This document shows positions 6,192 through 9,541 of a stretch of 64,000 bases of DNA, in pieces. The stretch's first letter is position 1. Each line of letters starts with the position of its first letter. Below the pieces are notes generated by a model. That model did not search any database, had not been told where the DNA came from, and saw nothing but the letters and a program-made list of their open reading frames with translations. The stretch comes from a virus (lineage: Duplodnaviria > Heunggongvirae > Uroviricota > Caudoviricetes): the IMG/VR virus record IMGVR_UViG_3300044295_000306; one strand, given 5' to 3'. The translations under genes were made by a program, and so were the position numbers.

Positions 6192-7550
6192 TTATGTAAA
6201 AAATGCATCTAATGTACTTATCTTCTCTGTCTTCCAACCGATACATTCTAATATTATTCTTAAAGGCTCAACAAAAGACTTCTCAAACTGTGTATCATAA
6301 TCTATTACATTACTTAAGTCAAATTCTTTCGGTATTCTATTAACAAAAGAAATCACATCAGACTTAAATACATTAGGTTCTTTCAAATATATAAACTTGA
6401 TCTTTTCACCTTCAACAATCAATTCATATCTTTTTTCTAACTTCTTTTCCTTAATGAAATGATTGTATATCAATGAACCTCTAACATGAATGGGAGTACC
6501 TTTAGAATATATCTTTTTACTATCAGCATATTGTCCTAATCCATTCATACCTCGAGGAAATGCTATATCTTCAGGAGATAATTGCTTAAACTCGTTCCGA
6601 AAATCTTCTATAAATCTATGAAGATCGCCCTCACTTTTATTAATAATTATCTTTAGTGCGGTCTTGATCTTTTCTCGACATGCACTGGGAGTTGATGATT
6701 TCACAGCCTCTAGTCCCTGAATCTTTATAGATGGCTCTTTATAAGCTACACCTTCTGAATTATAAACATTCAAAATATATCTTTTCTTTGCAGTCCAAAT
6801 AGCCTTATCTGCTAATACTTCTCTTTTCATCTTCATCTTCTGATCATATGCATGAACATAATCAGCTAGATTTTGATAACTTTTATCAATAAATGGCTGT
6901 AATTTATCTTCACAAACACGATCCATAAAATCAATAATCTTGTTTGCCTCAGGCATCTTGTTGAATACACTCTTTACGATAGGACCAAGATGAAGATAGA
7001 TTGAATCTGTGTCTGAAGCAATCACATAATCTTTCTTATCAGTTTTCAATATATTATTCATGAATCGATTAATATCATTCTCAATCCAACGAATAGATAA
7101 CTGACCAGAAAGAGTAATGGCTAAAGCAAGTCTGATATCATAAAATCTAAAATATTGTGAGCCTAAAGCACCATAAGCTGAGTTAAGACTTACTTTCTTA
7201 GCCAATTGAAGATTTTTATATCTAGATATTCTATCGTTGATATCTCTTTTATTTTTTTCATCAGTTGCCGTCTGATACTCTTTCTGTGCTTCAATCATCT
7301 TTTTCTTATAAACAGTCCGATCATCATACATCTTCTCTAGAATTTGAGGTAAAAAACCTTTAAAGTTCCTATGAAAAAATTCACCATTTGGTGTTAAAGT
7401 TAAATTATATTTTTCTAAAATTTCTAAATTTACTTTTTTCTGTAGCATTACATCGACATTAACTTTACCGGATAATTCTAGTAAGTTATTAAGTTCAAAA
7501 ATTTCATTTTCAATATCTTCATTTGACATACTACTAATTTGTCTGAACAT
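6192..7550 (-). CDS. 43: DNA polymerase gp43, C-terminal fragment (43B)
   Basis: PolB motif B KVSLNSAYG, motif C ASDTDS, KKRY, GLEAVKSSTP; start moved to ATG 7550 behind SD AGGA. Confidence 0.95.
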   Translation of the reverse strand: MFRQISSMSNEDIENEIFELNNLLELSGKVNVDVMLQKKVNLEILEKYNLTLTPNGEFFHRNFKGFLPQILEKMYDDRTVYKKKMIEAQKEYQTATDEKNKRDINDRISRYKNLQLAKKVSLNSAYGALGSQYFRFYDIRLALAITLSGQLSIRWIENDINRFMNNILKTDKKDYVIASDTDSIYLHLGPIVKSVFNKMPEANKIIDFMDRVCEDKLQPFIDKSYQNLADYVHAYDQKMKMKREVLADKAIWTAKKRYILNVYNSEGVAYKEPSIKIQGLEAVKSSTPSACREKIKTALKIIINKSEGDLHRFIEDFRNEFKQLSPEDIAFPRGMNGLGQYADSKKIYSKGTPIHVRGSLIYNHFIKEKKLEKRYELIVEGEKIKFIYLKEPNVFKSDVISFVNRIPKEFDLSNVIDYDTQFEKSFVEPLRIILECIGWKTEKISTLDAFFT

Positions 7551-8220
7551 TTTTATTCCTAAAATAACAATCACGAGAACAATATATTCTTTTCTTTACA
7601 GAGTTTGGCGTTATTATCAAATTATTACATACGACACAGAAAAATTTATTTTTCTCAGGGTATGCTAATTTTTTTGGCTTCTTAATACCAAAATACTCCA
7701 GTCTTTTTTTCACCAGGGATTCACTTATAGAATATTTTTTCGCAATCTCTTTCCTTTTCATATTTTTTTCTATAAAATCATTATATAATTCATCATAACT
7801 AGGATCATACAATCTCTTATTTTTCCAAAAATTTTTATGATTTTCATATCTCAAATTATTCCATGGTTTAGGTATTCCCTTCAAAGAACCCCCTTTTGTA
7901 TCTGAGATATTAAACAATTTTCCTTTTTCTTCAGAAAATCTTCTTCCATATTCTTTTATTAATCTAGTTTCTATATCATATGCTTCACTTTCAGATAAAT
8001 TCTCATACATTCTCTTAATAATCGGCGGCTTATTTTTATTCATCAATGAACGTATTTTATAATATAGAAAAGGATTTACAGTTTCTTTAGGATTTTTCCA
8101 TAAAGACGGCTTTAAATGTGAACTATCTCTGTATCCTGAACCTTTTCCGACATAGAAAATTTCTTTAGTATCTTGATCAATTAATGCATATACATAAAAA
8201 ACATTTAATTCTGTATCCAT
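7534..8220 (-). mobile_element. Free-standing GIY-YIG (LEM-3-like) homing endonuclease with HTH and Cys4 zinc finger
   Basis: FYVYAL...FYVGKG...R..H N-terminus, E and N catalytic positions, KEIAKKYSISESLVKKRL HTH, CVVC...CSRDC; lies between the gp43 halves. Confidence 0.85.
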
Positions 8221-8251
8221 AGATGTGTCTCCTTAGACACATCTATTTATA
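8219..8251 (-). promoter_or_regulatory. RBS-sequestering hairpin plus overlapping late promoter for the endonuclease
   Basis: Minus strand TATAAATAGATGTGTCT-AAGG-AGACACATCTATG: perfect 12-bp stem 8219-8246 covering SD AAGGAG and the AT of ATG; TATAAATA at 8244-8251. Confidence 0.85.
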
Positions 8252-9541
8252 AAACTTTCTTTTTTCCAGCTCTTTTTTCAATTGTTCTATGCGCTCCGAA
8301 ATCATGTCTTTAGAAACCAATGTCTCAGGTGAAATATTATACTGTTGCTGGAGATTTGGATAGAGTGAATTTAAATCGAAACTAGCGACATAATCAAACA
8401 TACCAATCTGTGGATCTTTTACATAAGCACCTTCATAAGCACTATCTTTTTGTGATTGTTTCTTCGGCGATATGATTATATTCTTCATTCGTAAGAAATT
8501 ATATGTAATAGTATCCCACATCCTAACTTGCATGAAAACATCATCATAATTATGTTTGTTATCATAAGCAAGTGTCAATGCCATTTCTATCAATCTGAGT
8601 TTCTTTTCGAGATTTTCCACAATCTCAGAATCTCGAATATTATACTCAATATATTTCTGAAAGTTCTGAACATATAACTGATGCAAATTATCATACTCAT
8701 CATATGTCATCTTTCTACCAACACCTTCACTCTCAGCTATAACATCCAATCTATAGGATTCTTGTTGATTACCACCAGATTGATACTTCCTATATAACTG
8801 CATATAATCAATCGTACAAATACCGACAAAATCATATGAAATCATATCTTTATTGTACAAGAATTCTTTCTTTTCATTGACTATGTTCCATGGCGATAAT
8901 CTTTTAGTTTCTTTATCACCCAAAAGTCTGAGAATTCGATTATGAAGATATGGAATATCAAAGCCTTTGATGTTCCAACCAGTAAGAATGTTTGGATAAT
9001 TCTGTGACCAATAATCAAGAAACTTCCGAATTAAATCGATTTCATCTTTACACCGAGTATAAATAACATCTTCTCTATGTTTTCTATAATCACCATAAGC
9101 AAATACATGGAACATAGAATCCATGGTAGATTTTATCGTTATAGCAGTAATAGGTTCTTTAGCTTCTTCTGGTTTGGGAAATCCATTCTCTGAACTTACT
9201 TCAATATCAAGATAAGCTATAGAAATATCACGAATATTCCATTGAATATCTTCATTCAAGTGCTCATCCGAAATAAATGCACAGTCATATCGTGTATTAC
9301 CATAAATAGAAAAACCCTCAACATCTTCATATTGGGAGACAAAATCTCTAGCTTCACGAATACTAGAAAACTTCATTTCATCAAGATATATACCATCAAG
9401 AGATTTGTATTTTGTCTCTTTCTTGGAGGGCAAATATAAAGTAGGCATGTAAGCTATTTTCAGCTTGACATGCCTACCATTTTCTACACCGCGATAATAT
9501 ATGAAGTTTCCTATACAATTTACATTTGTATAATATCTCAT
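8243..9541 (-). CDS. 43: DNA polymerase gp43, N-terminal fragment (43A: exonuclease plus motif A)
   Basis: ExoI LDIEV, ExoII GWNIKGFDIPY, ExoIII YNIRD, motif A SFDLNSLYP, NISPETL, then TAG. Confidence 0.95.
   Translation of the reverse strand: MRYYTNVNCIGNFIYYRGVENGRHVKLKIAYMPTLYLPSKKETKYKSLDGIYLDEMKFSSIREARDFVSQYEDVEGFSIYGNTRYDCAFISDEHLNEDIQWNIRDISIAYLDIEVSSENGFPKPEEAKEPITAITIKSTMDSMFHVFAYGDYRKHREDVIYTRCKDEIDLIRKFLDYWSQNYPNILTGWNIKGFDIPYLHNRILRLLGDKETKRLSPWNIVNEKKEFLYNKDMISYDFVGICTIDYMQLYRKYQSGGNQQESYRLDVIAESEGVGRKMTYDEYDNLHQLYVQNFQKYIEYNIRDSEIVENLEKKLRLIEMALTLAYDNKHNYDDVFMQVRMWDTITYNFLRMKNIIISPKKQSQKDSAYEGAYVKDPQIGMFDYVASFDLNSLYPNLQQQYNISPETLVSKDMISERIEQLKKELEKRKFYK

What the first reader, a model, noticed from the sequence alone, without database searches (positions are those of the whole stretch)
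7490..8310. Charge-complementary helices on the two new ends of the split polymerase
Seen: 43A ends DMISERIEQLKKELEKRKFYK (heptad I/I/L/L, basic tip) and 43B starts MFRQISSMSNEDIENEIFELNNLLEL (heptad I/I/L/L, acidic). Intact gp43 has only a short linker here. Inference: a built-in two-helix zipper that reassembles the halves, implying an old, adapted split that may predate the endonuclease. It could be a reusable natural split-protein tag.
Basis: inference. Interest (0 to 1): 0.7.

Follow-up and report, generated by a model that had tools for sequence, protein, structure and literature searches.

The report
Mobile split-polymerase cassette with paired tails
A phage DNA polymerase gene is cut in two by a selfish endonuclease gene, and the inserted cassette adds a basic helix to one new protein end and an acidic helix to the other; these probably hold the halves together, as was shown earlier for a split phage ribonucleotide reductase.

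Summary
43A (8243-9541, minus strand) ends in a basic 24-residue tail. 43B (6192-7550) starts with an acidic 28-residue head. AlphaFold2 folds each as a roughly 20-residue helix.

About 90 distinct tails and 70 distinct heads from metagenomes keep the same hydrophobic positions, the same charge polarity, one invariant Arg in the tail and one invariant Glu in the head. dN/dS is about 0.2 for both. Intact relatives carry a shorter linker of about 40 residues instead.

The interpretation needs changing. This is not an old, vertically inherited split. In a tree of the polymerase core, split and intact genes are interleaved, with at least 15 changes of state. Core pairs that are 94-97% identical differ in state, and the window's sister gene is intact. 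So tail, endonuclease gene and head behave as one mobile cassette that replaces the native linker.

The same helices flank either an HNH or a GIY-YIG endonuclease, which share a DNA-binding module, and the helices persist after the endonuclease gene is deleted. They therefore outlast any one endonuclease.

Helix-to-helix contact is inferred, not shown. The closest known case is the Aeh1 NrdA-a/NrdA-b tails (Crona et al. 2011, PMC3045599). I file this as a new member of that kind.

The parts
8243..9541 (-). gene 43A: N-terminal, exonuclease and first palm part of a T4-type family B DNA polymerase, through motif A
   Evidence: ORF. Pfam PF03104 and PF00136. Model matches RB69 gp43 residues 2-386 at Z 45. 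phmmer aligns 43A 409-411 to RB69 431-433.
8246..8317 (-). 43A C-terminal tail (residues 409-432), basic; predicted helix 411-430
   Evidence: AlphaFold2 helix. pI 9.6. Family conservation with invariant Arg at 43A residue 417. dN/dS 0.21 in the type-1 family.
8244..8251 (-). TATAAATA, a T4 late-promoter-like octamer overlapping the last codons and stop of 43A
   Evidence: Read. The same octamer sits at the tail stop in every other GIY-YIG-bearing cassette examined. Promoter function is inferred.
8219..8246 (-). 12-bp hairpin with a 4-nt loop covering the 43A stop, the AAGGAG ribosome-binding site and the first two bases of the endonuclease ATG
   Evidence: RNA fold -18.5 kcal/mol, z -6.7, no shuffle of 200 as good.
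7534..8220 (-). free-standing GIY-YIG homing endonuclease gene: N-terminal nuclease, C-terminal helix-turn-helix plus Cys-rich DNA-binding module
   Evidence: Pfam PF22945. 60-63% identical to endonucleases at the same gp43 site in L171 and L246. Residues 138-223 match the N-terminal module of the 177-aa HNH ORFs at 34% identity, E 1e-10.
7464..7550 (-). 43B N-terminal head (residues 1-29), acidic; predicted helix 10-29. Its ATG lies 14 nt inside the 3' end of the endonuclease ORF.
   Evidence: AlphaFold2 helix at pLDDT 84-88. pI 4.1. Invariant Glu16. Structural alignment to RB69 begins only at 43B residue 23, matching RB69 432-433. dN/dS 0.20.
6192..7550 (-). gene 43B: rest of palm, fingers (motif B), motif C and thumb
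   Evidence: ORF. Pfam PF00136 and PF20286. Model matches RB69 432-902 at Z 23. phmmer gives the same mapping.

Best explanation
The region is a mobile homing-endonuclease cassette sitting in gene 43 just after polymerase motif A, at a point matching RB69 residues about 432-452 in the palm, before the fingers. It replaces the native linker of about 40 residues with five things in order: a 24-residue basic helix that ends 43A, a stop codon with a hairpin and a late-promoter-like motif, a GIY-YIG endonuclease gene, a restart site, and a 28-residue acidic helix that begins 43B. Shown: the anatomy, the predicted helices, their conservation and purifying selection, their absence from intact genes, and the horizontal movement of the whole cassette among polymerase genes. 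Inferred: during mixed infection the endonuclease cuts intact alleles, and repair copies in the cassette with short flanks. Also inferred: the two helices leave the protein body at the same point and pack against each other, most likely antiparallel, with the invariant tail Arg and head Glu as candidate salt-bridge partners. This would replace the lost peptide bond with a non-covalent splint, so the insertion costs the phage little. Experimental work on the Aeh1 ribonucleotide reductase showed the same logic.
For: Anatomy and helices. The split family is large, with homologous tails and heads. Intact relatives lack them. No protein of 792 aa or more carries the head (weak evidence). Mobility: the core tree of 111 genes needs at least 15 state changes. 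Intact/split pairs have 94-97% identical cores, while split/split cores are 68-80% identical yet carry near-identical helices. DNA identity between L037 and L137 collapses only from motif A to about 100 codons past the cassette. Synonymous divergence is lower in tail and head (0.39-0.51) than in the flanks (0.67-0.80). Selection on the helices: dN/dS is about 0.2. Hydrophobic columns are 97-100% conserved, with invariant R and E. The helices are kept in alleles without the endonuclease gene: L129, L138, L140/142/143, L159 and L150. Charge polarity of +2.4 and -3.0 also holds in the diverged type-2 set. Geometry: 43B aligns to RB69 only from residue 23, at RB69 432-433, and 43A 409-411 aligns to RB69 431-433. 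Both extensions therefore start at the same site. Precedent: the Aeh1 NrdA-a tail (pI 10.4) and NrdA-b tail (pI 3.8) are essential for activity (PMC3045599).
Against: No model or experiment of the two chains together was possible, so contact between the helices is unproven. On single sequences the amphipathic pattern is not significant. In the Aeh1 precedent the tails were not needed for the two halves to bind each other, only for higher assembly and activity. A simple zipper role may therefore be wrong here too. Other split family B polymerases (Pfu, phage 25) reassemble without reported tails (PMC3061061, PMC2988022). The last tail residues and the first head residues are also constrained by the promoter, the hairpin and the overlapping reading frames. 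In the short type-3 cassettes one of three pairs (L316) lacks the charge polarity. The tree was built with FastTree only.
Confidence: 0.6

Rival explanations
1. The helices are needed, but not as a zipper between each other. Each packs on the opposite or its own half to rebuild the palm around motifs A and C, or to cover surface exposed by the cut. The halves would bind without them, as in Aeh1 NrdA.
For: [quoted passage not shown] The 43A palm fragment 370-406 is poorly ordered when modelled alone. This suggests the halves share a large native interface. The last two turns of the head helix occupy native positions.
Against: Both extensions start at one point, have similar length (about 20 residues) and carry opposite charge. 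Each holds exactly one invariant charged residue, of opposite sign.
Confidence: 0.22
2. The extensions are by-products of the cassette's DNA, with no protein-level role. They would be read-through into A-rich regulatory sequence at the 43A end and an overlap with the endonuclease ORF at the 43B start.
For: TATAAATA and the hairpin overlap the tail's last codons. The tail ending changes with the endonuclease type: RNTK with HNH, RNL with GIY-YIG. The 43B ATG lies inside the endonuclease ORF.
Against: Only the last 2-3 tail residues and the first 5 head residues overlap such signals. dN/dS is about 0.2 over the whole segments. The hydrophobic and charged columns are conserved between types that share only about 30% identity. 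The helices are intact in alleles that lost the endonuclease gene and its leader.
Confidence: 0.08
3. One reading: one ancient split, inherited vertically and adapted with a zipper, which endonucleases entered later.
For: The same helices flank two nuclease families and survive endonuclease loss. Three diverged cassette types sit at the same site in phages of 28-40% G+C.
Against: Split and intact states are interleaved in the core tree. Cores that are 94-97% identical differ in state, and the window's sister is intact.
Confidence: 0.1

Closest known systems
[quoted passage not shown] 2007; Crona et al. 2011, PMC3045599)
   Same: An essential replication-related gene is cut into two adjacent cistrons by a free-standing homing endonuclease gene. 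Unique extensions sit on the two new ends and are absent from intact homologues. The upstream fragment's tail is basic and the downstream fragment's tail is acidic (pI 10.4 and 3.8 there; 9.6-10.4 and 4.1-4.5 here). The downstream cistron overlaps the endonuclease gene.
   Different: The enzyme here is a monomeric polymerase, not a dimeric reductase. The tails are longer and predicted helical. A family of hundreds of sequences shows that they are conserved, mobile with the cassette and shared by two nuclease types. Function is untested here. In Aeh1 the tails serve dimer-of-heterodimer assembly, which has no counterpart in gp43.
Fractured genes: split inteins flanking a free-standing endonuclease gene in marine phage-like metagenome loci (Dassa et al. 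2009, PMC2677866)
   Same: Conserved replication genes of T4-like marine phages are broken at one point, with an endonuclease gene in between. A hairpin lies upstream of the endonuclease gene. Some variants have lost the endonuclease gene but keep the break.
   Different: There are no intein blocks here. The extensions total about 50 residues, and Pfam finds only PolB domains. Rejoining would be non-covalent rather than by protein splicing.
Bicistronic gp43 (43A/43B) of Aeromonas and Acinetobacter T4-like phages 44RR, 25, 31, 65 and 133 (Petrov et al. 2006, 2010; as described in PMC3061061 and PMC2988022)
   Same: A T4-type polymerase is encoded as 43A plus 43B. In phage 25 a GIY-YIG gene lies between them. 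The two products co-purify and are active.
   Different: Those splits lie in the tip of the fingers domain. This one lies about 20 residues after motif A in the palm, before the fingers. The papers I could read do not describe complementary terminal helices for those phages.
T4 topoisomerase gp39/gp60 split by mobA
   Same: Crona et al. note tail-like extensions with a similar charge distribution.
   Different: That case is only a suggestion in the literature, and I did not examine it here.

Membership tests
Endonuclease-fragmented gene with element-derived assembly tails (Aeh1 NrdA type) | Essential gene cut into two adjacent cistrons by a free-standing homing endonuclease gene | tested here: met
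   43A, GIY-YIG ORF and 43B are contiguous on the minus strand. Intact homologues are single ORFs.
Endonuclease-fragmented gene with element-derived assembly tails (Aeh1 NrdA type) | [quoted passage not shown] | tested here: met
   Tail of 24 aa and head of 28 aa, against the native linker in about 130 intact sequences. No long protein carries the head.
Endonuclease-fragmented gene with element-derived assembly tails (Aeh1 NrdA type) | Opposite net charge of the two tails | tested here: met
   pI 9.6 against 4.1 in the window. Family means are +2.4 and -3.0, and 91 of 92 tails carry a net charge of 0 or above (90 of them positive).
Endonuclease-fragmented gene with element-derived assembly tails (Aeh1 NrdA type) | Tails required for enzyme activity or assembly | not testable with these tools
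   This needs deletion mutants and polymerase or pull-down assays. The only indirect support is dN/dS of about 0.2 and retention after endonuclease loss.
Fractured gene with split intein | N- and C-intein blocks on the two new ends | tested here: not met
   Pfam finds only PolB domains in 43A and 43B. The extensions are 24 and 28 residues, predicted as single helices.
Fingertip-split gp43 of phages 44RR, 25 and 133 | Break within the loop between the two long fingers helices | tested here: not met
   The break maps to RB69 residues about 432-452, upstream of the fingers. Motif B lies about 120 residues into 43B.
Heterodimeric two-helix coiled coil | Two helices with a/d hydrophobic repeats that contact each other | tested here: inconclusive
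   Helices are predicted and the a/d-like columns are conserved. The repeat spans only about two heptads in the tail and is not significant on single sequences. Contact could not be modelled.
GIY-YIG homing endonuclease | GIY-YIG catalytic domain joined to a separate DNA-binding module, free-standing in a conserved host gene, with patchy distribution | tested here: met
   PF22945 at E 1.8e-9. A helix-turn-helix plus Cys module is shared with the HNH ORFs. The distribution is patchy on the core tree. Cleavage was not tested.

The most novel reading that the evidence does not exclude
The two helices are a selected, integral part of the selfish element. On this reading it is a self-neutralising homing cassette that carries its own protein-level splint. 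It can land in the middle of an essential polymerase domain and spread among phages whose polymerases differ by 20-45%. Nuclease modules (HNH or GIY-YIG) are exchanged on a constant helix-plus-DNA-binding platform. The helix pair would then be a natural, portable heterodimerising tag, already tested by evolution in many polymerase backgrounds.
Probability: 0.45. Interest if true: 0.72.

Novelty: new member of a known kind. Interest (0 to 1): 0.58.

Why it matters
Crona et al. proposed in 2011 that tails created by endonuclease insertion might be a general way to neutralise the fragmentation of essential genes. They had one biochemical example and no family to compare it with. This locus supplies a second enzyme, a new split point in a very well studied polymerase fold, and hundreds of natural variants. 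The variants show three things. The tails are conserved helices under selection. They move horizontally with the endonuclease gene. They persist after the gene is lost. How homing elements invade essential genes at low cost therefore becomes directly testable in a polymerase with abundant structures and assays. It also offers candidate short helix pairs for engineering split proteins. Finally, gp43 is used as a marker gene in marine virus surveys, so gene callers and marker studies should expect two-part genes here.

Tried and rejected
Metagenome proteins could therefore not be paired through their contigs, and I used IMG/VR and JGI scans instead.

2. Folding a fused 43A-43B chain was not possible. 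The three ORFs are in three different frames. In alleles without the endonuclease gene, 43A and 43B overlap out of frame. I did not build an artificial fusion.

3. I tested whether tail and head are duplicates of the native linker helix. Profile-profile comparison gave nothing significant: E 0.12 (tail against native), 0.86 (head against native) and 0.18 (tail against head).

4. Hydrophobic-moment shuffles on single sequences were not significant for the tails.

5. An alignment of the diverged type-2 heads was too variable to scan with. The window endonuclease alone found no close relative in IMG/VR. A two-sequence alignment of it did.

6. No whole genome is held for this window. The window contains no paralogue of the endonuclease.

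7. megablast against named phages found nothing. The nearest named phages are cyanomyoviruses at 46-56% protein identity, all with intact gp43.

9. Intein reading: rejected.

10. Residue covariation between tail and head: too few independent cassette types (three) to test.
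Full report
**What is in the window**

On the minus strand, three ORFs follow one another.
- 43A lies at 8243-9541 and is 432 aa.
- A 228-aa ORF lies at 7534-8220.
- 43B starts at the ATG at 7550 and ends at 6192, giving 452 aa.
- uvsX-like and gp41-like genes follow.

Pfam finds the PolB exonuclease domain and the start of the polymerase domain in 43A. It finds the rest of the polymerase domain in 43B and a GIY-YIG domain in the middle ORF.

43A stops about 20 residues after motif A. Motif B lies about 120 residues into 43B.

The split maps to RB69 gp43 residues about 432-452:
- By sequence, 43A 409-411 aligns to RB69 431-433, and the TPNG hairpin of 43B aligns to T4 residue 452.
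- By structure, the 43B model aligns to RB69 from residue 432-433 onward at Z 23.

This point is in the palm, ahead of the fingers. The natural gp43 splits described for Aeromonas and Acinetobacter phages lie in the fingertip (PMC3061061; PMC2988022). This is therefore a different break point.

**Checking the observation**

The tail is 43A residues 409-432, with pI 9.6. The head is 43B residues 1-28, with pI 4.1.

AlphaFold2 was run with alignments of split-family members. It predicts helix 411-430 in 43A at pLDDT about 70-74 and helix 10-29 in 43B at pLDDT 84-88.

On the window sequences alone it is not beyond chance, by hydrophobic-moment shuffles. The family carries the weight of the evidence.

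**The family**

Length-restricted searches of 5.8 billion proteins returned many 43A-sized proteins (about 427-436 aa) and 43B-sized proteins (about 451-456 aa). They are 52-61% identical to the window's proteins, with homologous tails and heads.

I collected 91 distinct tails and 68 distinct heads.
- Tail positions 7, 14 and 18 are hydrophobic in 99-100% of sequences, and Arg at position 10 is invariant. That Arg is 43A residue 417, which is also the only invariant column in the tail part of alignment A3.
- Head positions 2, 8, 13, 17, 20 and 23 are hydrophobic in 97-100% of sequences, and Glu16 is invariant.

Mean net charge is +2.4 for tails and -3.0 for heads.

Among 35 distinct type-1 cassettes, dN/dS is 0.21 for the tail and 0.20 for the head.

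Intact relatives have about 40 residues between the ISPE and TPNG motifs. These begin with a 17-residue acidic stretch and then a short second helix, which 43B residues 29-50 retain.

A search for proteins of 792 aa or more that contain the head found none. This is weak evidence.

**Mobility**

Scans of IMG/VR gave about 150 intact gp43 loci and about 50 split loci. I built a tree of 111 distinct genes from the 43A core plus the 43B core, with the linker removed.

In that tree, split and intact genes are fully interleaved. Starred branches alone force at least 15 changes of state.

Several intact/split pairs have nearly identical cores:

| Intact | Split | Core identity |
|---|---|---|
| L037 | L137 | 97% |
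| L049 | L005 | 96% |
| L070 | L126 | 94% |
| L007 | L152 | 94% |

By contrast, split genes that carry near-identical helices have cores only 68-80% identical.

The window's sister is the intact L003, at 79% core identity. Other split genes are about 55% identical to the window.

At the DNA level, L037 and L137 are 90-100% identical except from motif A to about 100 codons past the cassette. The window and L003 diverge exactly between the ISPE codons and the start of the second linker helix.

Synonymous divergence is lower in the tail and head than in the flanking core. This fits recent spread.

So the unit of tail, endonuclease gene and head is horizontally mobile. It replaces the native linker by recombination in the conserved flanks. 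Whether each individual change was a gain by homing or a loss by recombination with an intact allele cannot be told from an unrooted count.

**The endonuclease is the variable part**

Type-1 helices flank one of two endonucleases:
- a 177-aa ORF with a C-terminal HNH motif, or
- a 171-180-aa GIY-YIG ORF.

The last two or three tail residues switch with the endonuclease leader. The ending is RNTK plus a hairpin with HNH. It is RNL, with TATAAATA over the stop, with GIY-YIG.

The window belongs to a diverged type 2, whose heads are about 30% identical to type 1. Type 2 also includes L171 and L246, whose GIY-YIG proteins are 60-63% identical to the window's.

A third type has shorter tails and heads. 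It sits at the same site in phages of 28-40% G+C (L248, L313-L316). Two of its three pairs keep the basic/acidic polarity. All three keep one Arg in the tail and one Glu in the head.

All these endonucleases share a helix-turn-helix plus Cys-rich module. It lies C-terminal to GIY-YIG and N-terminal to HNH (34% identity, E 1e-10; weak Pfam hints).

**Alleles without the endonuclease gene**

- L129 and L138: 43A and 43B overlap by 11 nt.
- L140, L142 and L143: the overlap is 32 nt.
- L159: the tail is fused in frame to the last nine codons of the HNH ORF, while its relative L161 still has the gene.
- L150: only a remnant remains.

All of them keep both helices. In these cases the state without the gene arose by deletion. 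It is not a state that came before the endonuclease.

**How it probably works**

Shown:
- the cassette anatomy and its mobility;
- the predicted helices;
- selection acting on them.

Inferred from established knowledge of free-standing homing endonucleases in T4-type phages (PMC2988022):
- The nuclease cuts intact alleles in mixed infections, and repair copies the cassette in.
- The hairpin over the ribosome-binding site (z -6.7) and the late-promoter-like octamer restrict endonuclease expression, as for I-TevI and mobE.

Inferred for the helices:
- 43A's chain leaves the body at the position of RB69 431-433, and 43B joins the RB69 trace only from its residue 23, at RB69 432-433.
- The 24-residue tail and the first 22 or so residues of the head therefore project from the same point. 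One runs outward and the other inward.
- That is the geometry of an antiparallel helical hairpin whose loop has been cut.
- Opposite charge and the single invariant Arg and Glu fit a salt-bridged pair.

This last step is not shown. No two-chain modelling was available, and I did not build an artificial fusion.

**Comparison with what is known**

The concept already exists. In phage Aeh1, mobE splits nrdA. The unique basic C-tail of NrdA-a (pI 10.4) and the acidic N-tail of NrdA-b (pI 3.8) are essential for activity. The authors proposed that such tails may be a general way to neutralise fragmentation (PMC3045599).

Those tails were not needed for the two halves to bind each other. That keeps a rival reading open here: rebuilding the active site rather than acting as a simple zipper.

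Dassa et al. described fractured genes, in which split inteins flank an endonuclease gene. They also described a hairpin and variants without the endonuclease gene (PMC2677866). Here nothing resembles an intein.

I therefore file the locus as a new member of the Aeh1-type solution. It differs in four ways:
- it is in a different enzyme;
- it is at a new split point;
- the tails are helical;
- for the first time there is a large natural family, and that family shows the tails travel with the element.

**Verdict**

The helices are real and adapted, and they are older than any single resident endonuclease. But the split is a mobile cassette, not an old vertical feature.
- The zipper contact remains an inference.
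- Interest is moderate to good. The principle is known, but this case is unusually well supported by comparative data and is easy to test.

Noticed in passing
window 8219-8251 (minus strand): A 12-bp hairpin (z -6.7) buries the 43A stop codon, the AAGGAG ribosome-binding site and the start of the endonuclease ATG. TATAAATA overlaps its 5' arm. All GIY-YIG-bearing cassettes in relatives have TATAAATA at the tail stop. HNH-bearing cassettes have a different 9-bp hairpin instead.
   Followed up: partly
window 7534-7950 (endonuclease residues 138-223) and L060:4468-4760: The GIY-YIG protein and the 177-aa HNH proteins at the same gp43 site share a helix-turn-helix plus Cys-rich module (34% identity, E 1e-10). 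The nuclease domain sits on opposite sides of it. This looks like nuclease-domain swapping on one DNA-binding platform.
   Followed up: partly
L159 (43A/43B junction), compared with L161: The 43A tail is fused in frame to the last nine codons of the HNH ORF, and 43B follows directly. This is a clean deletion of the endonuclease gene that leaves the split gene and both helices. L129, L138 and L140/L142/L143 are further independent alleles without the gene.
   Followed up: yes
window 7550-7574: Mechanical ORF calling starts 43B at the GTG at 7574. All relatives start at the ATG at 7550 (Met-Phe-Arg), which has AGGA 10 nt upstream and lies inside the endonuclease ORF. This suggests translational coupling.
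   Followed up: partly
L246:4382-5302: The uvsX-like ORF downstream of this split gp43 runs into a sequence that looks like the start of an intein (a Cys followed by a Hint-like block). It may be a second mobile element in the same replication module.
   Followed up: no
L248, L313-L316: More distant T4-like phages (28-40% G+C) carry related GIY-YIG genes at the same gp43 position, with much shorter tails (about 12 aa) and heads (about 16 aa). These may represent a less elaborated stage of the same solution.
   Followed up: partly
type-1 split loci compared with intact loci: Cassette-bearing alleles read Ser-Ile-Ser-Pro-Glu-Asn and Gln-Leu-Phe where intact alleles read Asn-Ile-Ser-Pro-Glu-Thr and Gln-Phe-Phe, in the flanks next to the cassette. 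These may be co-converted changes that protect the allele from cleavage.
   Followed up: no
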